This document shows, piece after piece, positions 691-56,875 of a DNA stretch of 64,000 bases; within the stretch, counting starts at the first letter, position 1, and each line of letters opens with the position of its first letter. The notes beneath the pieces are model-generated. The model had not been told where the DNA came from, did not search any database, and was given only the letters and a program-made list of their open reading frames with translations. Position numbers and translations under genes: made by a program. Origin of the DNA: Candidatus Cloacimonadota bacterium (GTDB lineage: Bacteria > Cloacimonadota > Cloacimonadia > G963667145); the NCBI GenBank assembly GCA_963667145.1, contig OY762943.1, positions 337,459 through 401,458 on the forward strand, written 5' to 3'.

Positions 691-704
691 GTAAGAATAA
701 TTTT

Positions 705-2487: not shown

Positions 2488-2510
2488 AAATCTTTAATGA
2501 GGATAAAATT

Positions 2511-6596: not shown

Positions 6597-6615
6597 TTTT
6601 CCTCCAATTTTTAAA

Positions 6616-9554: not shown

Positions 9555-9563
9555 CGCATCCGC

Positions 9564-10283: not shown

Positions 10284-10297
10284 AACTTTCTCCTGTT

Positions 10298-11137: not shown

Positions 11138-11196
11138 AGTTAGTTAACTCTCCCAAAATGCAATAGTTAATTTTAGTCAATTAGCAAAAAAAAATT

Positions 11197-11598: not shown

Positions 11599-11716
11599 AT
11601 TTCAAAGTTCCTAAAAATATAATTACAAAGCTTTTCTTATTCGAATTAGTTCTGACAAAAGTTTCATCTAAATCCTATTTGACAAGATTTTTTTGTCTTC
11701 TTGTCATATTTTGTAG

Positions 11717-14219: not shown

Positions 14220-14223
14220 AAGC

Positions 14224-15327: not shown

Positions 15328-15329
15328 AA

Positions 15330-16610: not shown

Positions 16611-16613
16611 AAT

Positions 16614-17714: not shown

Positions 17715-17717
17715 TTA

Positions 17718-20351
17718 CTATCCTTTTAAACTACCCAATATAATCTTCTTTAACTTAGTCAGCCCAACACCATTAGAACCCTTGATGAGAACAACATCTC
17801 CTTGTGAAAACTTAGGCAAATTTTCGCAAAATTTGTCAACATTCTCATAGTAACAAGTCGGATTGTAGTGCTTAGCTAACTTTCCTACGCCAAAAGTCGT
17901 ATAATCGGAGACCAATTTGCCAATTTCCGCATGAAAATCAACTTCCTCGTCCCCCAATTCCAACATATCTCCCAAAATTGCAATATGATTATTATTTTTC
18001 TTGTAATTCTTCCAAAATTTTATCGCTTCTTTCATGGATAGAGGGTTGGCATTATAGCAATCAAAAATATAGTCAACGTCACTTATAGTTTTTATTTCCA
18101 ATCTGTTATCCAGTTCAAGAGAATGGAACAATCCCTCCGAAATAACCGAATTTTCTATTCCTAAAATCATCCCAACTTTTGCTGTAATGGCTGCCGCATT
18201 TGCTCTAAAAATCGGCTGATTTCCCAACTCAAAAACTTGCTTATCCAATTTTATAGAAATATCCTCACCCGATTGGATTGTTTCAAAATCCAAACTATCA
18301 TCAAAAAAATCTTTCGCTATCGTTACTTTTGTTTCGCTATAATCGAACAGTTTTTTCTTCTCCTGATATACACCTTGAATTGTCTTGAAAGTAGCCAAAT
18401 GACAAGCACTTATGTTGGTGATTATTCCTATGTTCGGACGAACAACTGTGGCTAATCTTTCTATCTCTCCAGGATGGTCAGTTCCCATTTCAATTAGCAA
18501 ATAGTTGTGAGAGGGAGTCAGCTCAAAAATCGTTTTGGGAACCCCAATTTGATTATTTTCGTTGGCAAAAGTCTTCAAAACCTTTCCACGTTGACTCAGT
18601 ACATTGCTCAACATTTCTTTGGTTGTTGTTTTACCAACACTTCCTGTGATACCAATTTTCACTGGGTTAAAATGCGACAAATACGCTTTTGCCAAGGTTT
18701 GATAGGCTTCTACAGTGTCTTCAACCATCATCACCCTGTCATCTTGGATTTTGCAATCTTTGTTGACGATGGCACAGCACCCTTCGATTTTCAACACTTG
18801 AGGCACAAATTGATTTGAATCGAAATTTTTGCCTGGCAAAGCTATGAATAAAGAATTAGGCTTTATTTTTCGAGAATCCGTAACTATCCTCTCAAAAACA
18901 AAATCCAAAGGAAAACACTCACCAAAAGACGAATTGAGAACCTTTTCTATCCACATTGGATCAAAAACTTGCTTGAAAGTAGTGTTGAAATCCTCCGATA
19001 AATAATCCAAGTCCGAAAATGGCAAAACCTCAAATCCTCGGTCAAGTTTTGTTTCCGCTCCTCTCCCCAATACTAAGAAGATTTCGTTATCTTTACAGAT
19101 TGATAAACCGTAAGTTATGGCTATTTTGCGTGACCTGATGACAACTATTTTTTCCATTTCATTTTCAGCGACTATTTCGGAAAGAATATCAGCAACATTC
19201 TCACTTCGGGAATTGTCCTCGCATATGATGACTAAATCCGAGTTTTCAACAGCAATCTTGCCCATTTTGCTTCGCTTGTCTCGGTCTCTATCTCCACCAC
19301 AGCCGAACAAAGTAATCACTCTTTTTCTTCCCAAACTTTTTGCGAACTGTAGTACCTTCAGCATAGAATCTGGGCTGTGAGCATAGTCAACCAGCACATT
19401 GCTTCGAACGAGATTGTACCTACCTTCCAAGGGCTTTACTTCGTGCAAAACATCAGTGAAAACTTTGCCCAAGACGACATTCAGCAACGACAAAATAAAA
19501 GCAGAATTGAAAAGATTTATTTCTCCCAATAGTGAAGTAACACACTCTAAATCGTTCAACTGAAATTTTGAACCCTGCAAGCTACTCTCTGTGCATTTAT
19601 AGTAATAATCAGCTTCTTTATCTACGAACGAAATTCTCAAAATTTTGTCCGCATCAAGCAATTTACCGTAGCTATCGTCCCAGTTTATCAGAGCAACACT
19701 CCCACAAGCAATCGCATTGTTGAGAAAATTAAGCTTTGTTTGGGCATAATTCTCAAAAGTTTTGTGGAAATCTAAGTGGTCTTGAGACAGATTTGTGAAA
19801 CAAACAATGTCGAACTTAATTCCCGCAACTCTTTGGAGAGCAATGGCATGTGAAGATACTTCCATCAAAACAAACTCGATGTTTGTCTCCGCCATCTTGG
19901 ATAAAATACGCCTCAATTCTATTATATCGGGAGTAGTTCGTTCATTTGTATATTCTTCTGTTCCAATTAGATATTTGCCAGTTCCTATCACTCCTGCTTT
20001 ATATCCTAACTTAGTTAAAACTCTGTGAGTTAGGAAAGAGCAACTCGATTTCCCGTTTGTCCCAGTTATTCCGATAATTTTCAACTTGTCAGACGGATTA
20101 TTGTAAAACTTATCAGACAAATATGCACAAGCCAATCTGCTGTCTTCACATATAATTACAGAAACTTTTGTCTCTATTTCCTCTTGTGATATTATTAAAG
20201 TTGCACCATTATTGATAGCATCATCAACAAAATTACGTCCATCTTGCGAAAATCCCTTGATGCAGACAAAAATGTAGTTCTTTTTTACCAGTCGCGAATC
20301 GGAAGCAATTCCTGAGTACTTCGAAACATCAACATCTTTTATCGTTTTCAT
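17718..20351 (-). CDS. murE-murF: fused MurE-MurF (UDP-MurNAc-tripeptide synthetase + UDP-MurNAc-pentapeptide synthetase)
   Basis: One 877-aa ORF with two complete Mur-ligase units and two P-loops: GITGTNGKSS (about aa 95, MurE-like) and GITGSVGKTTT (about aa 565, MurF-like). No internal stop or frameshift. Confidence 0.8.
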   Translation of the reverse strand: MKTIKDVDVSKYSGIASDSRLVKKNYIFVCIKGFSQDGRNFVDDAINNGATLIISQEEIETKVSVIICEDSRLACAYLSDKFYNNPSDKLKIIGITGTNGKSSCSFLTHRVLTKLGYKAGVIGTGKYLIGTEEYTNERTTPDIIELRRILSKMAETNIEFVLMEVSSHAIALQRVAGIKFDIVCFTNLSQDHLDFHKTFENYAQTKLNFLNNAIACGSVALINWDDSYGKLLDADKILRISFVDKEADYYYKCTESSLQGSKFQLNDLECVTSLLGEINLFNSAFILSLLNVVLGKVFTDVLHEVKPLEGRYNLVRSNVLVDYAHSPDSMLKVLQFAKSLGRKRVITLFGCGGDRDRDKRSKMGKIAVENSDLVIICEDNSRSENVADILSEIVAENEMEKIVVIRSRKIAITYGLSICKDNEIFLVLGRGAETKLDRGFEVLPFSDLDYLSEDFNTTFKQVFDPMWIEKVLNSSFGECFPLDFVFERIVTDSRKIKPNSLFIALPGKNFDSNQFVPQVLKIEGCCAIVNKDCKIQDDRVMMVEDTVEAYQTLAKAYLSHFNPVKIGITGSVGKTTTKEMLSNVLSQRGKVLKTFANENNQIGVPKTIFELTPSHNYLLIEMGTDHPGEIERLATVVRPNIGIITNISACHLATFKTIQGVYQEKKKLFDYSETKVTIAKDFFDDSLDFETIQSGEDISIKLDKQVFELGNQPIFRANAAAITAKVGMILGIENSVISEGLFHSLELDNRLEIKTISDVDYIFDCYNANPLSMKEAIKFWKNYKKNNNHIAILGDMLELGDEEVDFHAEIGKLVSDYTTFGVGKLAKHYNPTCYYENVDKFCENLPKFSQGDVVLIKGSNGVGLTKLKKIILGSLKG

Positions 20352-47566: not shown

Positions 47567-47843
47567 AAATCAAAACTTTTTTGTTCCTCTTTCGCCAAGC
47601 CTCGTGCAATTGCAAAATTTCCATCTGAAACAAAGTTTTTTTGTCCTCATCCCGAAAAGTGAGAATGTCCATCCAGTGCATCCGATTGTCTTTCCCCTTG
47701 AAAGATTTTTGAGGAAATTCCACCTGCAAACGACCGTCCTTCCGCAAGATAGAAACCTCGTTTATATACACACCTTCGCATATCTCGATGATGGCACGCG
47801 AGTCCACCACACCTTTGGAGACATCTTTAAAAATTACTTTCAT
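47556..47843 (-). CDS. spoVG: SpoVG family protein
   Basis: Core about 95 aa from M16 of the listed ORF (MKVIFKDVSKGVV...) matches SpoVG. Choosing this start gives an ATGA overlap with the nif3 stop. Confidence 0.6.
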   Translation of the reverse strand: MKVIFKDVSKGVVDSRAIIEICEGVYINEVSILRKDGRLQVEFPQKSFKGKDNRMHWMDILTFRDEDKKTLFQMEILQLHEAWRKRNKKVLIYES

Positions 47844-48574
47844 ATTACCTCTAATCGCTGTATTTTGTGTCTTTTCGGCACAAAACACTCAATGTTCATT
47901 TTATTTAATTGCGTTTGCAAAATCTCAATAGCAACACTCTCACTCCAATAGTGACCAACATCCAAAATGGAAACCTTGCTGTCTATGATTTGATGATATT
48001 TAAAATCCGCAGAAACCAGAATATCAGCTTTGTTCTCCAAGAGAGGCAACAAATGGCTACCGTTACCGCCACACACAGCAACTGTTCGCACCTTTTCCCG
48101 CAACGAATAAAGTTCCACGAATGGAGCTTGCAATCTCTTTTTCACAAATTCTGCAAAGTCAACAGTTGCCATCTCGGAAATTTCCCCCATTAACCCAAAC
48201 TCTTCTGTCTGGCTAATGTGGCTCAAGTTCGTAAGTTTCAACGCTTTTGCCAATCTGTAATTTACTCCCTCTTCGGCTATATCCAGATTTGTGTGAGCAC
48301 AAATTACATTGATTTTGTTCTCGATAATTCGCAAGTAGAGTTCGTTGCAAATAAATTTCAAGGGAGAAATAAATAGTGGATGATGAGAAACTATCAGCTC
48401 CGCTCCGAATTCAAGAGCCAACTCAACCGCCGACTCGTCTATGTCCAAACAAACCACAGCCTTGGAAATATTTCTATCGGTGCGTCCCACCAAAAGACCC
48501 ACATTGTCCCAGTCGGACGCCGATTCCCACGGAGCAAATTTATCCAAATTCGTCAAAATTTCGTTGATTTTCAT
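47840..48574 (-). CDS. Nif3-like dinuclear metal centre protein (YqfO/GTP cyclohydrolase 1 type 2 family)
   Basis: N-terminal W(E/D)NVGLLVG motif and His/Glu metal ligands. 244 aa. Confidence 0.8.
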   Translation of the reverse strand: MKINEILTNLDKFAPWESASDWDNVGLLVGRTDRNISKAVVCLDIDESAVELALEFGAELIVSHHPLFISPLKFICNELYLRIIENKINVICAHTNLDIAEEGVNYRLAKALKLTNLSHISQTEEFGLMGEISEMATVDFAEFVKKRLQAPFVELYSLREKVRTVAVCGGNGSHLLPLLENKADILVSADFKYHQIIDSKVSILDVGHYWSESVAIEILQTQLNKMNIECFVPKRHKIQRLEVI

Positions 48575-48740
48575 ACGCTCACAAAGAAATGAATAACGCT
48601 GTTATTAGTCAATAAATTATCCGTGGTAAATTTATTTGGAATTTGTCTTTATGATGGCTTTTTGAATTCACTCAATCATTATTCAACTATATTTTCGCTA
48701 GCGTAAAACAATTGATAGTTCCCTATCCCAACCAATTATA

Positions 48741-48900
48741 GATTCCCGCGTTTCAAGCACAATAGTACTAAGCAACAGATTAACGTTGTGCTTGATAGAC
48801 TGCGGGAATGAGGGTGCTTTGGACTTCCTGCTCTCATACTCACGCAAGTGGGTGTCCATCTTCTTGCTTCTCTATTCCTCATGCTTGCGAAAACGGTTAT
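48741..48900. repeat. repeat module A1/B1: nested palindrome (TCCCGCG...CGCGGGAATGAGG) followed by a B unit of about 80 nt
   Basis: GATTCCCGCG-(inner IR CAAGCACAA..TTGTGCTTG)-TGCGGGAATGAGG, then GTGCTTTGGACTTCCTGCTCTCATACTCACGCAAGTGGGTGTCCATCT. Copies A2/B2, A3/B3 and A4 occur elsewhere in the flanks. Confidence 0.7.
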
Positions 48901-48911
48901 CCATTTTTGAT

Positions 48912-49215
48912 GTTCATTTTTTTGCCGGAAAAAAACGAACCAAAAAACCTCCTTTTGTCATAAAATCGCTAAAACAGGGTCGTGAGATGCAGTGGTGCTG
49001 ACTCTGAGTAGAGACACCTCCGAGTAAACGACTATCCTCTGCTTCTCATAAATCACTTTTGCAATTCTCTAATGATGCTATGTTGTTAGCTAAATTATGC
49101 CAAAAGTCAAGCCCAGCTCAACCCAAAGAGTGCTTCACTCGGGGTGGGGTGGCTACAAATCCTTCAAGTCGAGCCTCGTGAAAATAGAAAACGACTGAAG
49201 TTAATTATTGTGCGA
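48912..49215. repeat. repeat module X1+Y1 (about 300 nt), direct repeat of 54494..54965
   Basis: TCATTTTTTTGCCGGAAAAAAACGAACCAAAAAACCTCCTTTTGTCATAAAATCGCTAAAACAG...GTGCTTCACTCGGGGTGGGGTGGC|TACAAATCC...GAAAATAGAAAACGACTGAAGT is shared with the right flank, identity about 75-95% per segment. Confidence 0.75.
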
Positions 49216-49326
49216 TACCTGTCGTCTCTTGCAGAATTTCTAATCTGACTTCACAGGTTGAGCTTACAATAATGCGAAGGAGTTGAATATTTTAGAGGTG
49301 AGACTTTGGATTTTGAATTTACCTTT

Positions 49327-49361
49327 GGTTCTTTCGCTTTGGTCACACAAAGGGAAAGAAC
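49327..49361. repeat. conserved hairpin module Z1 (GGTTCTTTCGCTTTG-GTCACAC-AAAGGGAAAGAAC)
   Basis: Imperfect stem of about 13 bp. An identical copy lies at 54650..54684, with the same 5' context GAATTTACCTTT. Confidence 0.7.
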
Positions 49362-49368
49362 ATAAAAT

Positions 49369-49500
49369 GGATTCCCGTTTTCACGGGAATGAGGGAAAAA
49401 AGCGAAAATGAGGATGATTGGGCTTCCTGCCCTCATACTCACGTAAGTGGGTATCTATCTCCCTGTTTCTCTACGCCTCATACTCACTGTCTATCAAGCA
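49369..49500. repeat. repeat module A2/B2
   Basis: GGATTCCCGTTTTCACGGGAATGAGG followed by GGCTTCCTGCCCTCATACTCACGTAAGTGGGTATCTATCTCC, about 80% identical to B1. Confidence 0.7.
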
Positions 49501-49777
49501 CAACTCTTTAACTTCTCCATCTTGCTTTTGTGCTTGGGGTGGATAAACTCTGAACACCAAAGAGGAGCAGTCTTAAATATCCATCTATGAAATGCAAAGC
49601 CAACTTATTGCAATAGCTAAACTTGAAGAGTACACGGGAGCATGCTGTACTTGATTCTCTGCTGGCGACTCGCAACGACTGCTACTATGTGGGCAGAGCG
49701 GTTTTTTCTTTCCCTCCTCTTTCTTTTTGAGCGGTCAAAAAGTAAAGAGGAGACTCTCTGTAAGAGAACATCCCAGC

Positions 49778-49870
49778 CACTGCCCTTGCTGGATTCCCGC
49801 GTCCGCGGGAATGAGGAGGGAAGGAGCGGGAATGGGGCGTGCTTTGGGGCTTCCTGCCCTCTTACCTCAT
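49778..49870. repeat. repeat module A3/B3 (GC-rich)
   Basis: GGATTCCCGCGTCCGCGGGAATGAGG, a second partial GAGCGGGAATGGGG, then GTGCTTTGGGGCTTCCTGCCCTC. Followed at 49880..49930 by an imperfect long palindrome CTGCGGAG..GTGTCC/GGACAC..CTCCGCAG. Confidence 0.65.
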
Positions 49871-49947
49871 GCCTGCGGAGGCGGTGTCCAGTTGGGTGAC
49901 AGATGGGGACACTCCGCAGCTCCTCACTCTCGTGCAGGCGACTGCAC

Positions 49948-49980
49948 AAAAAAATGGCACACCTTCAATAAAAGTGTGCC
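49948..49980 (-). terminator. intrinsic terminator of the lectin/LRR gene
   Basis: Minus-strand reading: GGCACAC-TTTTATTGAA-GGTGTGCC followed by ATTTTTTT, about 25 nt after the stop codon. Confidence 0.7.
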
Positions 49981-50002: not shown

Positions 50003-53000
50003 TTAATTAGTATTATAAATTCTACAACTTGGAAAAATTGCTTTAATACGAGCAACTTCTTCTGAGCTTATTTGATTATTATAACAATATAACCAAGTCA
50101 AATTAGTACATTTTTCTAATCCTACTAAGCTGGTGAGTTTATTATAAGAACAAGATAAAGTATTCAAATTAGTACATTTTTCTAATCCTACTAAGCTGGT
50201 GAGTTGATTATTATAACAATATAAAGTATTCAAATTAGTACATTTTTCTAATCCTACTAAGCTGGTGAGTTGATTATTATAACAATATAAAGTATTCAAA
50301 TTAGTACAATTTTCTAATCCTGTTAGGCTGGTAAGTTGATTAGCATTACAATCTAACACCCTTAATTTAGTACAATTCTCTAATTTTTCTAAACTTGTAA
50401 GCCGGTTATCTGAGCACTGTAAAAAATCTAGTATAGTACAATTATCTAATCCTTTTAAATTTGTAAGCTGGTTAGAATAACAATATAAGAAGCGCAAAAA
50501 CGTACAATTTTCTATTCCTTCTAAACTCGTTATTTGGTTGTCATGGCATTTTAAAAACCGCAAATTAGTACAATTTTCTAATCCTGTTAGGCTGGTGAGT
50601 TGATTCCTATAACACTCTAACTTATTCAAATTAGTACAATTTTCTAAAGCTGTTAGGTTGGTGAGTTGATTACCATCACAATATAAACTATACAAATTAG
50701 TACAATTTTCTAATTCTGTTAGGCTAGTGAGTTGATTACTATAACAAGCTAAATAAGTCAAATTAGTACAATTTTCTAATCCTGTTAGGATAGTGAGTTG
50801 ATTATGAGAACAATCTAACTCAGACAATTTAGTACAATTTTCTATCCCTGTTAGGCTAGTGAGTTGATTATTATGACACCATAAAGTAGTCAAATTTGTT
50901 AAATTTTCTATCCCTGATAGACTGGTGAGTTGATTATTATTACCACAATGTAAATAAGTCAAATTTGTTAAATTTTCTATCCCTGATAGGCTGGTGAGTT
51001 GATTATTATGACACCATAAAGTAGTCAAATTTGTTAAATTTTCTAATCCTACTAAGCTGGTGAGTTTATTATTATAGCACCATATAGAAGTCAAATTTGT
51101 TAAATGTTTAAGTCCAGAAAGATTGCTTAAACTAAAGTCACCTAAAGAAATCTCTTTTCTATTGAAAATTTCTTTTATTTTTTCATCACTTGGCTTGTTA
51201 GTATTTTTTGACAACCATAATACTTTATATTTAAAAGCTCTTTTCCATTGGTCTTCCAAGCTATCCCACCAATTACTTCTTCTTTGCACACCTAAGTCTC
51301 CATCCACCAAATGCCACTCTGCTCCGTGAAAGTTAGTATTGGTATCGATATCTTTTTCACTATTCCACTCACAAATAAAAGGTAGTTTTCCATTTCCACC
51401 GTCGTTCCAAGTGCCATCAGAATAGAAAAAGGCATAATCTTCGTCTCCACCATAGTTATTTGGTTCGCCCTTGCTCCAGTTGGCATAGTAGCGGTCTTCT
51501 CCGCTTGCCCATTTCCAAGTACCTTCTGTCTCAGTATCACTGGCTCCCATCCAGCATAGAGGACTGCCATTAGGAACTAAGACATCTTTATAAATAGTAT
51601 TTTGTTCTTCTTGAGAGCTTACGCTTACCAAATATCCACCAATTTTTTCGCAATAGGCTTTAGCTTCTTCCCAAGTCATTTCTGTTGAAAAATATTTATA
51701 AATATGTTTTGTTGGCTCTTTTATATCATCTTTACTATTCCATTCGCAAATAAAGGGCAATATTCCCATGCCTCCGTCATTCCAAGAACCGTTGGAATAT
51801 AATAACATAAAGTTTTCGCCATCGCCACTATTGTTTGGCTCACCAAAATTCCAATTACTATACTTCCATTTCTCTCCACTTACCCATTGCCAATCATCTT
51901 CTTTTTTGTAGTCGTTTGCTCCACCCCAACATTCAGGGCTACCATTGGAAACCATTACATTTTGATAGATATATTCTTGTTCCACCTGAGAAGTTATACT
52001 TGCCAAATATCCGCCTCTGCTTTCGCAATAGCTTTTGGCAGCTGCCCATGTCATCGGCTCTGAGATATATTTATACACATGCCCTTCAGGATTAAGCTTT
52101 ACCTCTGCCTGACTATTCCACTCACAGATAAAAGGCAAATTCTTTTCGGCTACATCATTCCAAGAACCATCGGGATAAAAAGATACATAGTTTTCAATTC
52201 CTGCACTATTACTCGGCTCACCCCTGCTCCAATTGCTGTAATAGCAATCTTCTCCACTTGTCCATTTCCAATTGTTTTCTTTCTCTTCGTCAGATGCTCC
52301 AAGCCAGCACTCTGGAGTACCGTTAGGAATAAGGTAGTTATTATAGATTTTATATTGCTCTTCACTGCTATTTACACTTACCAAATATCCGCCTATTCTT
52401 TCGCAATAAGCCTTAGCTTCAGCCCAAGTCATTTTTTCTGAAATATATTTGTAAACATGGTCAGTGTATTCTTTAATATCATCTTTACTATTCCATTCAC
52501 AAACGAAAGGTAAAAGCCCATAAGCTCCGTCGCTCCAAGTATTGCCCGAGTTAAAAAACATAAAATCTTGATTATTGCTATTGTCAGGCTCACCTTTCAT
52601 CCATTTTTCATATTCCCATTTTTCTCCGCTTACCCATTGCCAATGATTTTCATTTTTGTAATCACTTGCTCCGCCCCAACACAGAGGAGATCCATTGGGA
52701 ACTAAATAATTTTCAAAGATATATTCTTGTTCTATTTGAGTAGTTACACTAACCAAATATCCGCCTCTGCTTTCGCAATAAGTTTTGGCGGCTGCCCAAG
52801 TCATGGCTTTCGGGATATATTCATATACATGTCCGGTTGGATTGAGAATGTCTTCTTTACTATTCCACTCACAAATAAATGGCAGTCTTCCCTTGCCTCC
52901 GTCGTTCCAAGAACCGTCAGAATAGAAAAAAGCATAATCTTCGTCTCCGCCATAGTTATTAGGTTCGTTTTTGCTCCAATTGGAGTAGTAAAAACCTTCG

Positions 53001-54109
53001 CCGTTTGCCCATTTCCAATCTCCTTCCTTTTCTCCGTCACTTGCACCCATCCAGCAATTTGGATTGCCATTAGGTGCTAAAACATTGGTATAGACAAGAT
53101 TTTGTTCTTCTTGAGAAGTCACACTTACCAAATATCCACCTACGCTTTCACAATAGGCTTTAGCTTCTTCCCAAGTCATTTTTGTTGGAATATATTTGTA
53201 AATATGCTCTGTTGCTTCTTTAATATCTGCTTCTTTGTTCCACTCGCAAACAAATGGCAAAAGTCCATATCCTCCATCGCTCCAAGTATTGCCCGAGTTA
53301 AAAAACATAAAATCTTGACCACCGCTATTATCAGGTTCACCCGGATACCACTTAGTATAATCCCACTTTTCTCCACTTACCCATTCCCATTTGTCTTCTT
53401 TTTTGTAGTCGCTTGCTCCACCCCAACTTAGAGGGGTGCCGTTGGGAGCCAAATAATTGTGATATATATATTCTTGCTCTGTTTGAGAAGTCACACAAGC
53501 CAAATATCCGCCCATTCTTTCGCAATATGTTTTGGCGGCTGCCCAAGTCATGGCTTTGGAAATATATTTATAAACATGTTTTGCAGATTCTTTTATGTCA
53601 GCTTCGCTATTCCATTCGCATATAAAGTAAAACCTTCCCGCATTGCCATCGCCATCAAACCATTTGCCATTGGGAAGTGTAGCCAAATGGTCTTCATCGC
53701 CTGTACCTCCGCCATTGTTAGGTTCACCATCTGCCCAGTTAGTATAAGAGTCCAACTTTGTTCCATCTAACCATTCCCAAATAGCATCATTGTTGGTGTT
53801 AATTCCACCTATCCAACATGCAGGGCTACCACCTGGAACAATTACACTGTCATAAATATAATTTTGTTCTTCTTGGGAGTTTATACAAGCTAAATATCCA
53901 CCCATGCTTTCACAATAAGCTTTAGCTTCCTCCCATGATAGTGGCAGTTTTACCAGCTTATATACATGGGGATTCTGTGCAGTGGTTGATAATTGTACAT
54001 CATTCGATGTAGCGTCAGGTTTTGCGTGTTCTGTGGTTGGCAATGAGCAGGCATAGAAAATAATTACTGCAACTAACACGACTAATACGTTGAATAACTG
54101 TTTTTTCAT
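50003..54109 (-). CDS. giant secreted/lipoprotein-like protein with 7 tandem C-type lectin (CTLD/CRD) domains and about 19 C-terminal leucine-rich repeats
   Basis: Signal peptide MKKQLFNVLVVLVAVIIFYAC. Seven repeats of about 125 aa with the canonical CTLD pattern W.EAK.YCE..GGYL....S..EQ.YI...CW.G..D......W.W..GE...Y.NW..GEP(N/D/S)N......F......WND.....LPFICEW. Then 22-aa LRRs (NQLTSLxGLENCTNLxxLxCxx). SD AAGGAGG lies 8 nt upstream of the ATG. Confidence 0.85.
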   Translation of the reverse strand: MKKQLFNVLVVLVAVIIFYACSLPTTEHAKPDATSNDVQLSTTAQNPHVYKLVKLPLSWEEAKAYCESMGGYLACINSQEEQNYIYDSVIVPGGSPACWIGGINTNNDAIWEWLDGTKLDSYTNWADGEPNNGGGTGDEDHLATLPNGKWFDGDGNAGRFYFICEWNSEADIKESAKHVYKYISKAMTWAAAKTYCERMGGYLACVTSQTEQEYIYHNYLAPNGTPLSWGGASDYKKEDKWEWVSGEKWDYTKWYPGEPDNSGGQDFMFFNSGNTWSDGGYGLLPFVCEWNKEADIKEATEHIYKYIPTKMTWEEAKAYCESVGGYLVSVTSQEEQNLVYTNVLAPNGNPNCWMGASDGEKEGDWKWANGEGFYYSNWSKNEPNNYGGDEDYAFFYSDGSWNDGGKGRLPFICEWNSKEDILNPTGHVYEYIPKAMTWAAAKTYCESRGGYLVSVTTQIEQEYIFENYLVPNGSPLCWGGASDYKNENHWQWVSGEKWEYEKWMKGEPDNSNNQDFMFFNSGNTWSDGAYGLLPFVCEWNSKDDIKEYTDHVYKYISEKMTWAEAKAYCERIGGYLVSVNSSEEQYKIYNNYLIPNGTPECWLGASDEEKENNWKWTSGEDCYYSNWSRGEPSNSAGIENYVSFYPDGSWNDVAEKNLPFICEWNSQAEVKLNPEGHVYKYISEPMTWAAAKSYCESRGGYLASITSQVEQEYIYQNVMVSNGSPECWGGANDYKKEDDWQWVSGEKWKYSNWNFGEPNNSGDGENFMLLYSNGSWNDGGMGILPFICEWNSKDDIKEPTKHIYKYFSTEMTWEEAKAYCEKIGGYLVSVSSQEEQNTIYKDVLVPNGSPLCWMGASDTETEGTWKWASGEDRYYANWSKGEPNNYGGDEDYAFFYSDGTWNDGGNGKLPFICEWNSEKDIDTNTNFHGAEWHLVDGDLGVQRRSNWWDSLEDQWKRAFKYKVLWLSKNTNKPSDEKIKEIFNRKEISLGDFSLSNLSGLKHLTNLTSIWCYNNKLTSLVGLENLTNLTTLWCHNNQLTSLSGIENLTNLTYLHCGNNNQLTSLSGIENLTNLTTLWCHNNQLTSLTGIENCTKLSELDCSHNQLTILTGLENCTNLTYLACYSNQLTSLTELENCTNLYSLYCDGNQLTNLTALENCTNLNKLECYRNQLTSLTGLENCTNLRFLKCHDNQITSLEGIENCTFLRFLYCYSNQLTNLKGLDNCTILDFLQCSDNRLTSLEKLENCTKLRVLDCNANQLTSLTGLENCTNLNTLYCYNNQLTSLVGLEKCTNLNTLYCYNNQLTSLVGLEKCTNLNTLSCSYNKLTSLVGLEKCTNLTWLYCYNNQISSEEVARIKAIFPSCRIYNTN
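50130..50393. repeat. near-identical 66-bp tandem repeats inside the LRR-coding region
   Basis: Units start at 50130, 50196, 50262 and 50328 (CTGGTGAGTTGATTATTATAACAATATAAAGTATTCAAATTAGTACATTTTTCTAATCCTACTAAG), with 0-4 mismatches between neighbours. Further, more diverged copies run to about 51100. Confidence 0.85.
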
Positions 54110-54224
54110 TTATTCTTCCTCCTTGTTTTTAATTTCTAAACACAAAAAAAAGACCGCCCAACCGCATTGAACTGTCTCTCAAACTACATAAATTTTGTTG
54201 ACCTGTTAAACCACAGGCATCTTT

Positions 54225-54260
54225 GACTGACTGACTGACTGACTGACTGACTGACTGACT
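54225..54260. repeat. (GACT)9 tetranucleotide microsatellite in the lectin gene upstream region
   Basis: Nine perfect GACT units (AGTC on the coding strand), 116-151 nt upstream of the start codon at 54109. TTGACA-like hexamers lie just distal to it on the coding strand. Confidence 0.95.
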
Positions 54261-54413
54261 ATTCTATTCATTTTCATAAGCCTTAAGAATATGAAGTCAA
54301 ACAGATGTCAAATACTTTTTATGCTTCTAAGCACAATGCCGTCTCTCTATATTCTCATCCTCGCGAAAGCGGGGAACCATTCTCCTTTTCGTGCTATCCT
54401 TACTAAACCAACT

Positions 54414-54440
54414 GGATGCCCGTTTACACGGGCATGAGGA
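54414..54440. repeat. repeat module A4 (GGATGCCCGTTTACACGGGCATGAGG)
   Basis: Same palindrome-plus-ATGAGG architecture as A1-A3, with compensatory changes in the stem (TCCCG/CGGGA becomes GCCCG/CGGGC). Confidence 0.65.
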
Positions 54441-54493
54441 TTAGAAAAACAGGAAGCACAAGCACTCCTCATTCTCGCGGAAGCAGGGATTTA

Positions 54494-54590
54494 CAAGCCC
54501 AAAAAGTGCTTCGCTTGGGGTGGCTACAAATCCATCAAGTTGAGCCTCGTAAAAATAGAAAACGACTGAAGTCAATTGTTGTGCGTCTGA
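54494..54590. repeat. repeat modules X'(3' end of X)+Y2
   Basis: CAAGCCCAAAAAGTGCTTCGCTTGGGGTGGC|TACAAATCCATCAAGTTGAGCCTCGTAAAAATAGAAAACGACTGAAGTCAATTGTTGTGCG matches 49110..49215. Confidence 0.75.
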
Positions 54591-54633
54591 CCACTAAAAT
54601 AAAGCTAATCTTTGAGACTATATTTTAGTGGTC
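54589..54633. repeat. perfect 13-bp inverted repeat hairpin
   Basis: GACCACTAAAATA-(19-nt loop)-TATTTTAGTGGTC. No adjacent U-tract on either strand. Confidence 0.8.
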
Positions 54634-54649
54634 AGATGAATTTACCTTT

Positions 54650-54684
54650 GGTTCTTTCGCTTTGGTCACACAAAGGGAAAGAAC
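54650..54684. repeat. hairpin module Z2 (identical to Z1)
   Basis: GGTTCTTTCGCTTTGGTCACACAAAGGGAAAGAAC, identical to 49327..49361. Confidence 0.75.
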
Positions 54685-54722
54685 ATAAAAGTGAATTACC
54701 TCTTTTGTGAGAAGGAGTTTAT

Positions 54723-54965
54723 GCTCATTTTTTTGCCGGGAAAAAACGAACCAAAAAACCTCCTTTTGTCATAAAATCGCTAAAACAGTGACGTGAGATG
54801 AAATAATGCTAACCATGAATAGAAACATCTCCGAGTAAATGACTATCACCTGCTTCCCACAATCCACTTTTACACTTTCTCAATTATGCCACTGCCGTTT
54901 TACTAAATTATGACAAAAGTCATGCCCAACCTTCCCAAAGTGTGCTTCGCTTAGGGTAGGGTGGC
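54723..54965. repeat. repeat module X2 (full-length copy of X1)
   Basis: TCATTTTTTTGCCGGGAAAAAACGAACCAAAAAACCTCCTTTTGTCATAAAATCGCTAAAACAG...AAAGTGTGCTTCGCTTAGGGTAGGGTGGC. Aligns end-to-end with 48912..49153. The first 70 nt are about 97% identical and the rest about 70%. Confidence 0.75.
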
Positions 54966-55175: not shown

Positions 55176-56348
55176 TCACATCAAATAAACTCTCTGCACC
55201 GAACCAATAGCCAATTTATCCTCATCTATTCTTATCTCCACCAAACCTTCAATTTCATTCAACGACAACAGATGACCAGAATTAACAAAATTACAGACCT
55301 CAACTTTTCCGTTAATTATTCTAACAGGTCTGTACTCTTGCCTGTCCAAGTCTTTCGTACGCACAAACTCCTTCCCCATGGGCAAATTCAAGACTGAAGG
55401 ATTCGAGGGCAAACCAAGAAGTCGTTTAATCAATTGGGAGACAAACAGATGAAAAACCACAAAACTGGAAACCTGATTGCCAGGCAAAGCAAAATAAGGT
55501 TTCCCACAGACTTCAGAAAAAAAAGTGGGTTTCCCCGGCTTAAACTTCATCTTTTGGAAAATGAATTTTGCCCCCAATTCCTGCAAAGCTCTGGGGATAT
55601 AATCGAAATCGCCCATGGAAGCACCACCCGAAGAAAGCACCAAATCACATTCGGAAACCGCTTGTTTGATGGCGTCGACAGTTGCAGGCAAATCATCACT
55701 AACCAACCTATATTCCACAGGAATAGCACCCAATTCTCGCACCTGAGCCGCCAACATCGGACTGTTGCTGTCAAATTTTTTGCCAATTGCCAAATCACCG
55801 AAATCTTCCACCAACTCATCACCAGTCACCAAAATCCCAACTCTTGGCTTCTTATAAACCTTTATCTCCCTCTTGCCCACAGAAGCCAAAATCCCGATAG
55901 TCTGAGAAGCAACTTTCTGACCAGCATGCAAAATTCTCTCGCCCTTGCTGACGTATTCGCCTTGATAGCAAATGTTGTTCCCCACAGCACCAGTGATTTT
56001 CAGCCGATTGCTTTCCACTTCAGCATCTTCCACAGGCACCACCATATCGAACTCTTTGGGAACTACCGCTCCAGTCATTATCTTGATGCATTCACCTTCG
56101 GAATACTTTCGTCCTAAGTCCTCTCCTGCTTTTTGCACAGCCACCACCTCAGGCAAAACATCACTGCTTCTGTAAGCGTAGCCATCTTTCAAAGCCTTGT
56201 CATAAGCAGGCTGATCGAACGGCGATGTTACATCTTCAGCCAAAGTTCTACCCAAACCCTCAGCCAGTGGAACAATCTCATGCGACAACGACGATAATTC
56301 GTACTCATCTATCAACTTGAAAGCCAAATCAGGTTCAATAAACTTCAT
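55176..56348 (-). CDS. moeA: molybdopterin molybdotransferase
   Basis: MoeA/gephyrin-E architecture, with the GGASMGDFDY and PGKP regions. Confidence 0.85.
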   Translation of the reverse strand: MKFIEPDLAFKLIDEYELSSLSHEIVPLAEGLGRTLAEDVTSPFDQPAYDKALKDGYAYRSSDVLPEVVAVQKAGEDLGRKYSEGECIKIMTGAVVPKEFDMVVPVEDAEVESNRLKITGAVGNNICYQGEYVSKGERILHAGQKVASQTIGILASVGKREIKVYKKPRVGILVTGDELVEDFGDLAIGKKFDSNSPMLAAQVRELGAIPVEYRLVSDDLPATVDAIKQAVSECDLVLSSGGASMGDFDYIPRALQELGAKFIFQKMKFKPGKPTFFSEVCGKPYFALPGNQVSSFVVFHLFVSQLIKRLLGLPSNPSVLNLPMGKEFVRTKDLDRQEYRPVRIINGKVEVCNFVNSGHLLSLNEIEGLVEIRIDEDKLAIGSVQRVYLM

Positions 56349-56458
56349 AAAATAAACTCCTTAACCTCAAAATTTTCAAAATATTAAGTCAATCTCAACT
56401 CTCATCAGCAAGATGCCAAGAAGAAAATTAATCTTTAAAAAAAATTGACAAGGGGACG

Positions 56459-56866
56459 ATGTTTTTTTACGAAAATGTCGAGTGTATTATGAATTTTGAA
56501 AACGAATTGGAAATAAAATTATTTTTATTAGATAACGAAGGCAAACGTTTTATGGGCATCGGCATCGTGTGGTTGCTACGAGCTGTAATCGAACACAAAT
56601 CTCTGAAACAAGCCGCCGAAAGCATGAATCTGTCCTATTCTAAAGCCAACAAAATGGTGCGTCGCGTGGAATCTGTCACGGGAAAAAAACTGCTTTTCGC
56701 CAGCAAAGGCGGTATAGAACGTGGAGGCAGTACGCTCACTCCGTTTGCCTTGAAATACATCAAAACCTACGAAAAGATGAGCAAATCTATAAAAGAAAAT
56801 TCCCAAAAATATCTTCAAGAATTTCAAAACGAAATGAGAAAATATAGCAACAAAATCTGTAAATAG
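56459..56866 (+). CDS. ModE N-terminal-domain-like winged-helix regulator (no TOBE domains)
   Basis: SLKQAAESMNLSYSKANKMVRRVESVTGKKLLFASKGGIERGGSTLT aligns with the ModE/LysR-type HTH region (GIS...A..........G..L..R..GG..GGG..LT). Divergent from moeA. The true start may be M11 (MNFENE..., 56489). Confidence 0.55.
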   Translation: MFFYENVECIMNFENELEIKLFLLDNEGKRFMGIGIVWLLRAVIEHKSLKQAAESMNLSYSKANKMVRRVESVTGKKLLFASKGGIERGGSTLTPFALKYIKTYEKMSKSIKENSQKYLQEFQNEMRKYSNKICK

Positions 56867-56875
56867 AAGTTACTT

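What the first reader, a model, noticed from the sequence alone, without database searches (positions are those of the whole stretch)
50003..54109. Giant bacterial surface protein made of seven animal-type C-type lectin CRDs fused to about 19 cysteine-containing LRRs
Each of the seven repeats, about 125 aa long, carries the full metazoan Ca-dependent CRD signature. That includes the WIGL-like CW.G, the sugar-selectivity tripeptide in the GEPxN position, the WND/WSD motif and the terminal ...FICEW with conserved cysteines. The selectivity tripeptide varies between repeats: EPN (mannose/GlcNAc-type in animals) in four, EPD in two and EPS in one. This suggests a multivalent lectin whose repeats have diversified in specificity. 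The C-terminal part is a long solenoid of 22-aa LRRs (LTSLxGLENCTNLxxLxCxxNQ) of a type seen in bacterial adhesins. A signal peptide with Cys21 suggests a lipoprotein or otherwise surface-anchored protein. Everything else in the window is housekeeping. This gene sits in an insertion-like island with its own terminator, a GC-elevated repeat frame and an SSR phase-variation switch. I cannot tell from sequence alone whether it is a horizontally acquired eukaryote-like lectin or a convergent, repeat-amplified bacterial CTLD.
Basis: partly seen in the sequence, partly recalled or inferred. Interest (0 to 1): 0.8.

Follow-up and report, generated by a model that had tools for sequence, protein, structure and literature searches.

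The report
Bacterial seven-lectin, LRR surface lipoprotein
An uncultured small-genome bacterium carries a strain-specific, probably switchable gene for a large surface lipoprotein made of seven sugar-binding C-type lectin domains and 17 leucine-rich repeats; the lectin domains belong to a widespread but unstudied bacterial branch of the family and were not recently taken from animals.

Summary
ORF 50003-54109 (-) encodes 1368 aa: a lipoprotein-type signal peptide (Cys21), seven Pfam Lectin_C domains (E 3e-97), a short cap, and 16-17 internalin-like 22-residue LRRs (not 19). The CRD3 model (pLDDT 91) superposes on solved sugar-binding CRDs at TM 0.80-0.86.

Corrections:
- The canonical inner disulfide is absent.
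- Only CRDs 3, 6 and 7 keep all five Ca/sugar-site residues.
- CRD1 has WFD.
- The gene is GC-poor, not GC-elevated.

Origin: the CRDs are closest to a paralogue in the same genome (up to 94%), then to bacterial CRDs (at most 54%), then to animal CRDs (at most 41%). They share bacterial hallmarks, namely no inner disulfide and a CEW terminus. This argues for in-lineage amplification and module shuffling, not recent transfer from animals.

Context: the moeA-nif3 gap is 62-70 bp in two relatives. It holds unrelated lipoprotein genes in two others, one of them a near-conspecific. That strain shares the leader, with (GTCA)13 against (GTCA)9 here.

Best reading: a multivalent, probably phase-variable glycan-binding adhesin in a variable surface-lipoprotein locus. 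It is a new variant of known kinds. Binding and switching are untested.

The parts
50003..54109 (-). Whole gene: 1368-aa lipoprotein-like multi-CRD/LRR protein (= database protein P0001)
   Evidence: ORF list. Pfam Lectin_C x7 plus LRR_4. A 100% match to P0001, which sits on a 1,539,614-bp contig.
54047..54109 (-). Signal peptide MKKQLFNVLVVLVAVIIFYA|C with Cys21, a lipobox-like site
   Evidence: The sequence itself. The first 31 aa are identical in paralogue P0002. The cargo proteins at the same site in L009 and L010, and P0285 in L014, have similar ...AC|S or ...GC| sites. No SignalP or LipoP tool was available.
51365..53971 (-). Seven tandem C-type lectin CRDs (aa 47-915). Units: 53612-53971, 53240-53611, 52865-53239, 52493-52864, 52118-52492, 51740-52117, 51365-51739
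   Evidence: Pairwise identity is 41-77% at the amino-acid level and 64-80% at the nucleotide level. Two types alternate: CRD2 resembles CRD4 (75%) and CRD3 resembles CRD7 (77%). The AF2 model of CRD3 has pLDDT 91.2. Foldseek gives TM 0.80-0.86 to solved CRDs.
51131..51364 (-). Linker and LRR N-cap (aa 916-993), with the motif RRSNWWDSLEDQWKRAF
   Evidence: Model confidence is low in single-sequence mode.
50003..51130 (-). 16-17 LRRs of 22 residues (aa 994-1346), a C-terminal cap helix and the stop codon
   Evidence: Repeat layout. TRF finds 15.5 copies of a 66-nt unit at 50072-51097. The model shows a strand every 22 residues with pLDDT 85-95. The best PDB matches are InlA and Leptospira LIC11098. 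The last four units are 88-94% identical at the nucleotide level.
49956..49980 (-). Intrinsic terminator of the gene
   Evidence: An 11-bp stem (5 GC pairs), a 3-nt loop and ATTTTTTTGT.
54113..54483 (-). Conserved leader/promoter region, with RBS AAGGAGG 8 nt before the ATG
   Evidence: It is 78-97% identical to L009 9859-10221, which there precedes an unrelated 290-aa lipoprotein gene.
54224..54260 (-). (GTCA)9 tetranucleotide SSR, 115-151 nt upstream of the start codon
   Evidence: TRF gives 9.2 copies at 100% match. L009 has 13 units at the same place. It is the only such SSR in the window.
54498..54965 (.). Upstream copy of a ~470-bp direct repeat (segments B then A) inside a window-specific ~690-bp insertion next to moeA
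   Evidence: blastn: 54718-54965 matches 48907-49153 at 82% over 250 bp. 54498-54700 matches 49122-49376 at 70% over 260 bp. Both pairs are on the same strand. The repeat is absent from L009-L013.
48785..49950 (.). Downstream non-coding block of degenerate ~420-600-bp repeat units, including the A-B copy at 48907-49376. It carries palindromes of the form TTCCCGnnnnCGGGAATGAG and has 45.5% GC
   Evidence: No Pfam hit for the ORFs inside it. No Rfam hit.
55176..56348 (-). moeA, the conserved left border of the variable gap
   Evidence: Pfam MoeA_N and MoCF_biosynth. 96.7% nt identity to L009.
47840..48574 (-). nif3-family gene, the conserved right border of the variable gap
   Evidence: Pfam DUF34_NIF3. 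93.5% nt identity to L009. The 62 bp next to it (48575-48636) are 95% identical to L009.

Best explanation
The gene encodes a surface-exposed, lipid-anchored adhesin of an uncultured bacterium with a 1.54-Mb genome. An N-terminal lipoprotein signal, cleaved before Cys21, would tether the protein. Seven tandem CRDs form a multivalent glycan-binding stalk.

The CRDs belong to a bacterial branch of the canonical Ca-dependent C-type lectin family that has lost the inner disulfide. CRDs 3, 6 and 7 keep all five Ca-site-2 ligands (E-P-N, E, W-N-D), and the HMM alignment places these motifs in the same columns as in metazoan CRDs. They are therefore predicted to bind sugars of the mannose/GlcNAc/fucose/glucose type in a Ca-dependent way. 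CRD5 (EPS) and CRD1 (WFD) have a modified site. CRDs 2 and 4 (EPD, Q, WSD) have a re-modelled site of unknown or lost specificity. A C-terminal solenoid of 17 internalin-like LRRs provides a second, protein-binding surface.

The array arose inside the lineage by duplication of a two-CRD unit and by module shuffling:
- a paralogue has the same signal peptide and six CRDs on an FGE-sulfatase-type C-terminus;
- a relative has two CRDs on the same kind of C-terminus;
- another relative has the LRR module alone at this very locus.

The gene sits in a hypervariable surface-lipoprotein site between moeA and nif3. It lies behind a conserved leader that contains a (GTCA)n tract of strain-variable length, so expression is probably phase-variable and the cargo is exchanged between strains by recombination.

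Shown: the architecture, family membership, fold, residue pattern, nearest relatives, synteny, SSR polymorphism and terminator. Inferred: lipidation, surface exposure, Ca/sugar binding and its specificity, ON/OFF switching, and the recombination mechanism.
For: - Pfam Lectin_C x7 and LRR_4.
- Single-CRD PDB sequence hits to CL-P1, aggrecan, SP-D and DC-SIGN at E 1e-13 to 1e-16.
- CRD3 model with pLDDT 91.2, TM 0.80-0.86 and rmsd 1.2-2.1 A to solved CRDs that have bound sugars.
- Motif table and column statistics.
- Nearest-neighbour analysis.
- Exhaustive search of 1.84 billion representatives. In it, the 28 proteins with the best per-domain score have few or no Cys at the C2 position (27 have none, one has it in 1 of 4 CRDs).
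- Paralogue and relative architectures.
- LRR model and its matches.
- LRR-cap homology to the cargo of L010 at the same locus.
- Synteny: the gap is 6601 bp here, 5409 bp with unrelated lipoproteins in L009 (flanks 93.5-97.3% nt identical), 3175 bp in L010, and 70 and 62 bp in L012 and L013.
- Shared leader with 9 against 13 GTCA units.
- Terminator.
- Atypical codon usage: GC3 of 0.29 against 0.418 +/- 0.044.
Against: - There is no experimental binding or expression data of any kind.
- Loss of the inner disulfide, which braces the long loop region that forms the Ca/sugar site in animal CRDs, could mean altered or no Ca-dependent binding.
- Four of the seven CRDs deviate at one or more ligand positions.
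- The lipobox (F-Y-A-C) is not the textbook L-[AS]-[GA]-C, and no predictor could be run.
- No sigma-70-type promoter was found near the SSR, so its position relative to the promoter is unknown.
- Two alleles show length polymorphism, not switching.
- The leader RNA folds no better than shuffled sequence (z = -0.10).
- The habitat and any host of the organism could not be established.
Confidence: 0.6

Rival explanations
1. It is a recently acquired animal lectin, a 'eukaryote-like protein' copied from a host mannose-receptor-type gene and used for molecular mimicry.
For: Whole-protein searches rank sea-urchin, chiton and vertebrate 'macrophage mannose receptor 1-like' proteins high. The solved structures closest by sequence are DEC-205, PLA2R and Endo180. 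Codon usage is atypical for the genome.
Against: The high ranks come from summing many weak domain hits. Per domain, animal CRDs reach at most 41% identity and 81 bits, against 50-54% identity and 173 bits for bacterial CRDs. The CRDs lack the inner disulfide that 64% of the metazoan CRDs in the sample have, and they end in CEW, which none of the 122 metazoan CRDs do. There is no FNII, ricin or TM module. The partner domains (LRR_4, FGE-sulfatase) and the lipoprotein leader are bacterial. A relative with only 60% GatB identity already has the same type of CRD lipoprotein.
Confidence: 0.04
2. The CRDs are structural or protein-binding CTLDs that no longer bind sugar. The protein would be an LRR adhesin or spacer whose lectin-like repeats serve only as a stalk or as a variable antigenic surface.
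For: The inner disulfide is lost in all seven CRDs. Ligand positions are altered in CRDs 1, 2, 4 and 5. Many CTLDs in animals and in bacteria (intimin, DGR variable proteins) do not bind sugar (own knowledge; PMC6328139 for the DGR CLec fold).
Against: E-P-N, E and W-N-D are kept intact in CRDs 3, 6 and 7, in the same alignment columns as the Ca/sugar-site residues of metazoan CRDs. Across 255 bacterial CRDs these positions are as well or better conserved than in the animal sample: P 93%, W 91%, D 88%, N 60-65%. This argues for selection on the Ca/sugar site.
Confidence: 0.17
3. It is a freely secreted or polysaccharide-targeting module like a CBM, used for nutrient capture or for attachment to plant, fungal or microbial glycans rather than to a host.
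For: In other bacteria the same CRD type is fused to dockerins, peptidases, lipases, ricin-type lectins and Big_2 domains (Pfam columns). This is the pattern expected of a general carbohydrate-binding module. The best LRR matches in genomes come from rumen and gut MAGs.
Against: This protein has no catalytic or dockerin domain. It has a lipoprotein-type leader and sits in a locus whose alternative cargos are all lipoproteins. This rival differs from the best explanation only in the target of binding, which cannot be decided here.
Confidence: 0.2
4. The SSR and flanking repeats are incidental and the gene is constitutively expressed or silent. The locus is merely a deletion-prone intergenic region.
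For: Only two alleles of the tract are known. No promoter was identified. No integrase, transposase or tRNA lies in or beside the gap.
Against: The tract is a perfect 9-unit repeat, the only one in 64 kb. It is retained, with a different length, in a leader that is otherwise 78-97% conserved in front of a different gene. Three of five genomes carry different lipoprotein cargo at the same site.
Confidence: 0.25

Closest known systems
Canonical animal Ca-dependent C-type lectin CRDs (collectins MBP/SP-D/CL-11, DC-SIGN, MGL, CEL-I; Pfam PF00059)
   Same: Same Pfam family. Same fold, at TM 0.80-0.86 and rmsd 1.2-2 A. The outer C1-C4 cysteine pair and the W-x-G motif are present. CRDs 3, 6 and 7 have the E-P-N, E and W-N-D Ca-site-2 ligands in the same alignment columns as metazoan CRDs. 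From memory, the EPN-to-WND spacing is the same as in human MBL.
   Different: No inner C2-C3 disulfide, with Y, F or H in place of Cys. An extra Cys precedes the W-x-G motif. The C-terminus is CEW. The setting is a bacterial lipoprotein. Binding is untested.
Mannose receptor family (MRC1, PLA2R, DEC-205, Endo180): 8-10 tandem CTLDs
   Same: A tandem array of many CTLDs in one chain. These are the best whole-chain PDB sequence hits, at E 1e-43 to 1e-44.
   Different: No ricin-type or FNII domains, no TM or cytoplasmic tail. Per-domain identity is only about 25-41%. The array evolved independently by in-lineage duplication.
Uncharacterised bacterial Lectin_C proteins in gut, rumen and other metagenomes (for example P0285, P0335, P0259, the Synergistaceae and Clostridia proteins P0022, P0043, P0061 and P0076)
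   Same: The same CRD subtype: no C2 Cys, a CEW end, EPN or QPD plus WND. Some also combine Lectin_C with LRR_4 (P0032, P0049, P0053, P0067, P0076, P0110).
   Different: Most have 1-4 CRDs attached to enzymes, dockerins or InlB B-repeats. None in the lists has 7 CRDs plus 17 LRRs behind a lipoprotein leader. Identity is at most 54%.
Listeria internalins and Leptospira LRR proteins
   Same: 22-residue LRR units. The best structural matches are InlA, InlF and LIC11098. NCBIfam internalin models hit the LRR part.
   Different: Scores are far below the family cut-offs, at 149.8 against 1600 bits for InlA. There is no internalin cap/IR domain, no LPXTG anchor and no GW anchor. Two Cys per repeat in 12 repeats is unusual.
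Phase-variable contingency loci with tetranucleotide or promoter-proximal SSRs (H. influenzae mod AGTC repeats, N. meningitidis nadA TAAA tract, M. gallisepticum vlhA GAA tract; own knowledge) and Mycoplasma variable surface lipoprotein families
   Same: A perfect tetranucleotide tract lies upstream of a surface-protein gene and differs in length between strains. Families of lipoproteins share a leader and signal peptide but have different mature parts.
   Different: The tract lies 115-151 nt upstream of the start codon, not in the main ORF. Its relation to the promoter is unknown, and no ON/OFF data exist.
Bacterial CTLD-fold proteins of other kinds: intimin/invasin C-terminal domain, and DGR variable proteins with an FGE-sulfatase-type CLec fold (PMC6328139, PMC4159848)
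   Same: A distantly related fold. The paralogue P0002 and the relative P0285 end in an FGE-sulfatase domain.
   Different: The seven repeats here are true PF00059 domains with the long loop region. Intimin_C scores only 17.5 bits against a cut-off of 27. No template-like copy of any part of the gene exists in the window.

Membership tests
C-type lectin domain, Pfam Lectin_C (PF00059) | Profile HMM score above the curated gathering threshold | tested here: met
   320.9 bits against a cut-off of 22.6, in 7 separate stretches.
C-type lectin domain, Pfam Lectin_C (PF00059) | CTLD double-loop fold (two helices, two sheets, long loop region) | tested here: met
   AF2 model of CRD3 with pLDDT 91.2. 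Foldseek TM 0.80-0.86 and rmsd 1.2-2.1 A to aggrecan, MGL, CEL-I, SRCL, SP-D, CL-11 and Endo180 CRDs.
C-type lectin domain, Pfam Lectin_C (PF00059) | Outer disulfide C1 (helix 1) to C4 (last strand) | tested here: met
   Both cysteines are present in all 7 CRDs (YCE... and F[IV]CEW). Formation of the bond itself is not testable.
C-type lectin domain, Pfam Lectin_C (PF00059) | Inner disulfide C2-C3 bracing the long loop region | tested here: not met
   The C2 column holds F, Y or H in all 7 CRDs, and no Cys follows the WND motif. The same holds for 93% of 255 bacterial CRDs, whereas Cys occupies this column in 64% of metazoan CRDs.
Ca-dependent carbohydrate-recognition domain (functional CRD) | Five Ca-site-2 ligands: E and N of EPN (or Q and D of QPD), a downstream E, and N and D of WND | tested here: inconclusive
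   All five are present in CRDs 3, 6 and 7. CRD5 has EPS, CRD1 has WFD, and CRDs 2 and 4 have EPD, Q and WSD. The side-chain geometry of the model could not be measured with the tools available.
Ca-dependent carbohydrate-recognition domain (functional CRD) | Ca-dependent, EDTA-sensitive sugar binding | not testable with these tools
   Needs expressed protein and a glycan array or ITC.
Mannose receptor family (animal multi-CTLD receptors) | N-terminal ricin-type domain, FNII domain, 8-10 CTLDs, TM helix and cytoplasmic tail | tested here: not met
   Pfam finds only Lectin_C and LRR families. The protein ends in an LRR cap.
Internalins (Listeria class 1) | NCBIfam internalin model above cut-off; N-cap, 22-residue LRRs, IR domain, and an LPXTG or GW anchor | tested here: not met
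   The best hit is internalin_A at 149.8 bits against a cut-off of 1600. Only the 22-residue LRR region matches. There is no LPXTG at the C-terminus.
Leucine-rich repeat solenoid (bacterial 22-residue type) | Tandem LxxLxLxxN-type units forming a curved solenoid with one strand per unit | tested here: met
   16 units by sequence. 17 strands at 22-residue spacing, with pLDDT 85-95. LRR_4 at 215.7 bits.
Bacterial lipoprotein | Signal peptide ending in a lipobox with an invariant Cys | tested here: inconclusive
   MKK, a 15-residue hydrophobic core, then F-Y-A-C21. Similar ...A-C or ...G-C sites occur in the cargo proteins of L009 and L010 at the same locus and in P0285 of L014. No LipoP or SignalP tool was available, and positions -3 and -2 are atypical.
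Phase-variable (contingency) locus | A simple sequence repeat in or upstream of the gene | tested here: met
   (GTCA)9 at 54224-54260, 115 nt upstream of the ATG, 100% perfect.
Phase-variable (contingency) locus | Repeat number varies between or within strains | tested here: met
   9 units here against 13 units in L009, within an otherwise conserved leader. Only two alleles were seen.
Phase-variable (contingency) locus | Repeat number changes expression (ON/OFF or graded) | not testable with these tools
   Needs reporter fusions or transcript and protein data.
Genomic island / integration hotspot | Presence or absence polymorphism between conserved flanking genes | tested here: met
   The moeA-nif3 gap is 6601 bp (window), 5409 bp (L009), 3175 bp (L010), 70 bp (L012) and 62 bp (L013).
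Genomic island / integration hotspot | Mobility genes (integrase or transposase) or a tRNA target | tested here: not met
   No tRNA in the window. The ORFs in the flanks have no Pfam hit. Only ~470-bp direct repeats bracket the leader and gene.
DGR-diversified CLec-fold variable protein | A template repeat nearly identical to a variable region, with a reverse transcriptase nearby | tested here: not met
   No part of the gene has a second copy elsewhere in the 64-kb window. The window genes that were sampled are housekeeping.

The most novel reading that the evidence does not exclude
The moeA-nif3 site may be an expression site for surface-lipoprotein cassettes in a deep-branching, small-genome bacterial lineage. 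In this reading, a conserved promoter/leader with a (GTCA)n switch stays in place. Unrelated lipoprotein genes are swapped in behind it by recombination at the start codon and at flanking repeats. Here the cargo is a seven-CRD, Ca-dependent lectin from a bacterial, disulfide-poor branch of the C-type lectin family that has never been studied biochemically.

If true, this would combine cassette-type antigenic variation, SSR phase variation, and a functional bacterial counterpart of animal multi-CRD receptors used to bind host or microbial glycans.
Probability: 0.2. Interest if true: 0.7.

Novelty: new variant of a known kind. Interest (0 to 1): 0.5.

Why it matters
C-type lectin CRDs are textbook animal innate-immunity modules. 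In the searches made here, no paper in the held library describes canonical bacterial PF00059 arrays.

The data show three things. A large bacterial branch of the family exists: it supplies the best per-domain matches among more than 34,000 clusters of 50%-identity representatives that match one CRD at E<=0.001, a total that includes the animal CRDs. That branch keeps the Ca/sugar-site residues while dispensing with the inner disulfide. And in one lineage it has been amplified into a seven-domain, probably switchable surface protein.

This provides compact, cysteine-poor CRDs for testing how much of the C-type mechanism depends on the disulfide. It provides candidate new glycan-binding reagents. 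It is also an example of a strain-variable adhesin locus in an uncultured lineage known only from closed metagenome genomes.

It does not change any established concept, and every functional statement is still a prediction.

Tried and rejected
1. Exact look-up of the protein and its paralogue in the contig index found nothing. The paralogue's locus and the rest of the source genome could therefore not be read.
2. The scan of GTDB species genomes returned only LRR matches in rumen and gut MAGs, not the source genome. GatB places it in a deep lineage whose best named relatives, Ignavibacteriota and Desulfobacterota, are only about 50% identical.
3. The word-indexed homologue search with a single CRD gave only 11 short, unnamed hits. 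The exhaustive search replaced it.
4. Recent HGT from animals was rejected on per-domain identity and on bacterial-specific features.
5. The FGE-sulfatase-type or intimin-type CLec fold was rejected for the seven repeats. The paralogue's C-terminus does carry an FGE-sulfatase domain.
6. A DGR target was rejected for this window, because no template-like copy exists.
7. An ncRNA or riboswitch in the repeat-rich flanks was rejected. Rfam in E-value mode gave only a chance miRNA hit at E 0.12, and the leader fold has z = -0.10.
8. A leader peptide or attenuator was considered. A short ORF does start at a conserved ATG 18 nt before the SSR and reads through it (23 codons here, 43 in L009). No supporting structure or conservation of the peptide was found, so it is noted but not claimed.
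9. The sigma-70 promoter scan found nothing convincing upstream of the gene.
10. The leader-plus-SSR pattern is absent from JGI metagenome contigs.
11. A pseudogene was rejected: the ORF is an intact 4.1 kb with a strong RBS and a terminator.

Full report
**1. What is there**

The window holds one uninterrupted ORF at 50003..54109 on the minus strand, 1368 aa. It has a strong ribosome-binding site, AAGGAGG, 8 nt before the ATG. An intrinsic terminator lies 23 bp after the stop codon: an 11-bp stem plus a T-run at 49980-49956.

Pfam assigns seven separate Lectin_C (PF00059) stretches, 320.9 bits in total and E 3.4e-97. It also assigns eleven LRR_4 stretches. NCBIfam gives only sub-threshold internalin matches over the LRR part, for example 149.8 bits against a cut-off of 1600 for InlA.

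The exact protein is already in the public protein collection. It is unnamed there (P0001) and sits on a contig of 1,539,614 bp.

**2. Anatomy**

*Signal peptide.* Residues 1-21 are MKKQLFNVLVVLVAVIIFYAC. This is a signal peptide ending in a lipobox-like A-C.

*CRDs.* Seven CRDs follow at 47-166, 167-290, 291-415, 416-539, 540-664, 665-790 and 791-915.
- They are 41-77% identical in protein and 64-80% in DNA.
- Two types alternate: CRD2 resembles CRD4 (75%) and CRD3 resembles CRD7 (77%). This points to duplication of a two-CRD unit.

*Motifs.*
- The WND position reads WND in CRDs 3, 5, 6 and 7, WSD in CRDs 2 and 4, and WFD in CRD 1.
- The acidic residue between these motifs is E in CRDs 1, 3, 5, 6 and 7 and Q in CRDs 2 and 4.
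- Only CRDs 3, 6 and 7 therefore have the complete set of five Ca-site-2 ligands.
- From memory, the run EPNNYGGDEDYAFFYSDGSWNDGGK in CRD3 lines up without gaps against [25 protein letters not shown] of human mannose-binding lectin. This is a lead, not a test. The tool-based equivalents are the HMM column statistics and the pairwise alignments.

*Cysteines.*
- Each CRD has the outer pair C1/C4 and one extra Cys before the W-x-G motif (Ser in CRD2).
- The canonical inner pair C2-C3 is missing. In alignments to DEC-205 and PLA2R, the C2 cysteine falls at or beside Y in 'EDYAFF' (within one column), and the C3 cysteine, seen in the DEC-205 alignment, falls on a Gly in the G-G-K stretch after WND.

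*Cap and LRRs.*
- After a ~78-residue cap (916-993) come sixteen 22-residue LRRs by sequence, at 994-1346. Four have one Cys and twelve have two.
- The single-sequence AF2 model shows seventeen strands at 22-residue spacing, with pLDDT 85-95 in the repeats, then a C-terminal cap helix.
- The best structural matches are InlA, InlF and Leptospira LIC11098.
- The last four LRR units are 88-94% identical in DNA, so they are recent.

**3. Fold**

An AF2 model of CRD3 was built on a 29-row alignment of the seven repeats and bacterial relatives. It has mean pLDDT 91.2. It superposes on solved sugar-binding CRDs at TM 0.80-0.86 and rmsd 1.2-2.1 A. These include aggrecan, MGL with GalNAc, CEL-I, SRCL, SP-D with mannose, CL-11 with fucose, and Endo180 CRD2. 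The repeats are therefore true long-loop CTLDs. They are not the compact intimin type or the FGE-sulfatase type.

**4. Origin**

Whole-protein searches place animal 'macrophage mannose receptor-like' proteins high. That is an effect of summing many weak domain hits.

I extracted 407 CRDs from the 120 best hits and aligned them to a profile of the seven repeats. Each repeat is closest to CRDs of a paralogue in the same genome (P0002, up to 94%). Next come bacterial and metagenomic CRDs (at most 50%), then animal CRDs (at most 41%).

Two features separate the groups:

| Feature | Bacterial CRDs (n=255) | Metazoan CRDs (n=122) |
|---|---|---|
| Cys at the C2 column | 7% | 64% |
| C-terminal E / W after C4 (CEW) | 69% / 52% | 22% / 0% |

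This protein follows the bacterial pattern on both counts.

An exhaustive HMMER search of 1.84 billion representatives with CRD7 found 34,312 clusters at E<=0.001. When the 139 best proteins are re-scored per domain, the 28 with the highest per-domain scores have few or no Cys at the C2 position: 27 have none, and one has it in 1 of 4 CRDs. Proteins rich in C2 Cys reach at most 81 bits, against 173 bits for the best bacterial one. In the bacterial set the Ca/sugar-site residues are well conserved: P 93%, W 91%, D 88%, N 60-65%.

I conclude that the CRDs belong to a large bacterial branch of PF00059. The array was built inside the lineage. A recent transfer from an animal is very unlikely.

The gene's codon usage is nevertheless atypical for the genome:
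- GC3 is 0.29 against 0.418 +/- 0.044.
- RSCU correlation is 0.52 against a mean of 0.76.

This fits acquisition from another AT-richer bacterium, repeat-driven composition, or both.

**5. Module shuffling**

- Paralogue P0002 (1114 aa) has the identical first 31 residues and six CRDs, but ends in an FGE-sulfatase domain instead of LRRs.
- The closest protein outside the genome, P0285, shares 54% identity with CRD7. It is a lipoprotein with two CRDs plus an FGE-sulfatase domain, and its N-terminus reads ...LILAC|STLPT. It sits on a contig whose GatB is 60% identical to the window's, so it comes from a more distant member of the same lineage.
- The LRR module with its WWDxL...W cap occurs without CRDs in a 673-aa lipoprotein of relative L010, at the same chromosomal site.

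**6. The locus**

GatB lies 4 kb away and was used to fetch relatives. The source belongs to a deep, unnamed lineage. The best named GatB relatives are only about 50% identical. Several closed genomes of about 1.55 Mb belong to it.

The state of the moeA-nif3 gap in each genome:

| Genome | GatB identity to window | Gap (bp) | Contents |
|---|---|---|---|
| Window | - | 6601 | Lectin gene with leader and repeat blocks |
| L009 | 98% (flanking genes 93.5-97.3% nt) | 5409 | Five ORFs; four begin with a lipoprotein signal, three with the identical MKKLSLIMLSLAMLFVLAC|SDSSPTGNT |
| L010 | 79% | 3175 | Two lipoproteins |
| L012 | 78% | 70 | Empty |
| L013 | 76% | 62 | Empty |

The 370 bp upstream of the lectin ATG (54113-54483) are 78-97% identical to the region upstream of the first L009 cargo gene. 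Homology stops at the start codon. On the other side, homology resumes in the 62 bp before nif3. The same leader therefore drives unrelated lipoprotein genes in two near-conspecific strains.

The leader plus lectin gene is bracketed by a ~470-bp direct repeat. 54498-54965 matches 48907-49376 at 70-82%, with the two halves in permuted order. The repeat lies inside blocks of degenerate repeats and palindromes of the form TTCCCGnnnnCGGGAATGAG. Within the window these occur only here. They have no Pfam or Rfam match. No integrase, transposase or tRNA is present.

**7. The SSR**

(GTCA)9, written (TGAC)9.2 on the plus strand at 54224-54260, is perfect. It is the only tetranucleotide tract in the window. 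It lies 115-151 nt upstream of the ATG.

L009 has 13 units at the same position, two of them GTCG. This is direct evidence of length polymorphism.

Whether the tract lies in the promoter or in the 5'-UTR is unknown. No sigma-70-like promoter was found. The leader RNA folds no better than shuffled sequence. A short ORF starts at a conserved ATG 18 nt before the tract and reads through it, but nothing else supports a role for it.

**8. Interpretation**

The most likely reading is a lipid-anchored, multivalent glycan-binding adhesin that also carries an LRR protein-binding arm. It would be expressed from a phase-variable leader in a site where surface-lipoprotein cargo is exchanged between strains.

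The predicted ligands of CRDs 3, 6 and 7 are sugars with equatorial 3- and 4-OH groups (Man, GlcNAc, Fuc, Glc). This is an inference from the EPN rule in animal CRDs. The other CRDs have modified sites.

The binding target cannot be decided. It could be host mucus or epithelium, other microbes, or dietary glycans. The habitat is also unknown. The best LRR matches in genomes are from rumen and gut MAGs, and many related CRD proteins carry dockerins, which hints at a gut-type community.

**9. Novelty**

- Database annotation already shows Lectin_C in many bacterial proteins, and combinations with LRR_4 exist.
- Six literature searches found no study of canonical bacterial PF00059 arrays.
- The DGR literature concerns a different CLec sub-fold (PMC6328139, PMC4159848).
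- I rate this a new variant of known kinds, of moderate interest. It is a solid, well-delimited candidate for a first biochemical look at disulfide-poor bacterial C-type CRDs and at a cassette-like, SSR-controlled lipoprotein locus. All functional statements remain predictions.

Noticed in passing
window 581-692 (+): An FMN riboswitch (121.8 bits, E 6e-28) lies directly upstream of a ribD / ribBA riboflavin operon at 755-3704.
   Followed up: partly
window 17718-20351 (-): A single 877-aa ORF fuses MurE (aa 8-453) and MurF (aa 491-868) within the dcw cluster, next to MurD, FtsW and a PBP2/FtsI-like gene.
   Followed up: no
window 56349-56875; L010 12635-15478; L012 and L013 equivalents: Relatives L010, L012 and L013 carry a three-gene ABC transporter between the M48 protease gene and a small HTH_1 regulator gene next to moeA. 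Its parts are ABC_tran, BPD_transp_1 and SBP_bac_11, so it is probably modCBA. The window and L009 have lost the transporter and keep only the 135-aa regulator (56459-56866 +).
   Followed up: partly
window 54207-54275 (-); L009 about 10041-10172: A short ORF begins at a conserved ATG(AAA)ATG 18 nt before the (GTCA)n tract and reads through it: MKMNRIVSQSVSQSVSQSKMPVV*, 23 codons here. With 13 units in L009 the frame shifts and the ORF runs to 43 codons. An AGG-containing, SD-like motif lies 9 nt before the second ATG in both strains.
   Followed up: partly
P0002 (same genome, outside the window): The paralogue has the identical first 31 aa and six CRDs, but a C-terminal FGE-sulfatase domain. 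This is the CLec sub-fold typical of DGR variable proteins. Whether a DGR diversifies it could not be checked, because its locus is not retrievable.
   Followed up: partly
L014 (ena:ERZ21862665:ctg6572l) 6457-20035: In this more distant relative (GatB 60% identical) several housekeeping genes are called in pieces. PriA is in three ORFs, an ArsB/CitMHS transporter is in two, an MFS gene is truncated, and GatB lacks its first ~50 residues. This reflects either genome decay or assembly frameshifts. The contig also carries fliG, so the lineage may be flagellated.
   Followed up: no
window 48785-49950 and 54375-54965; L009 9941: A family of short palindromes, TTCC(C/T)CGnnnnCG(G/A)G(G/A)A(A/T)GAG, sits inside ~420-600-bp degenerate repeat units. 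In this window they are found only around the lectin gene. One copy lies in the L009 leader and none in L010, L012 or L013. Their nature is unknown: REP-like, MITE remnant or recombination site.
   Followed up: partly
L009 11525-15133: Three tandem paralogous lipoprotein genes (402, 400 and 390 aa) share an identical 28-residue N-terminus (MKKLSLIMLSLAMLFVLACSDSSPTGNT) but have diverged mature parts. They have no Pfam match. They look like a variable surface-lipoprotein family.
   Followed up: partly
window 50072-50400 (LRR units at aa 1259-1346): The last four LRR units are 88-94% identical at the DNA level, and two are identical in protein. This suggests recent expansion and possible variation in repeat number by recombination.
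   Followed up: no
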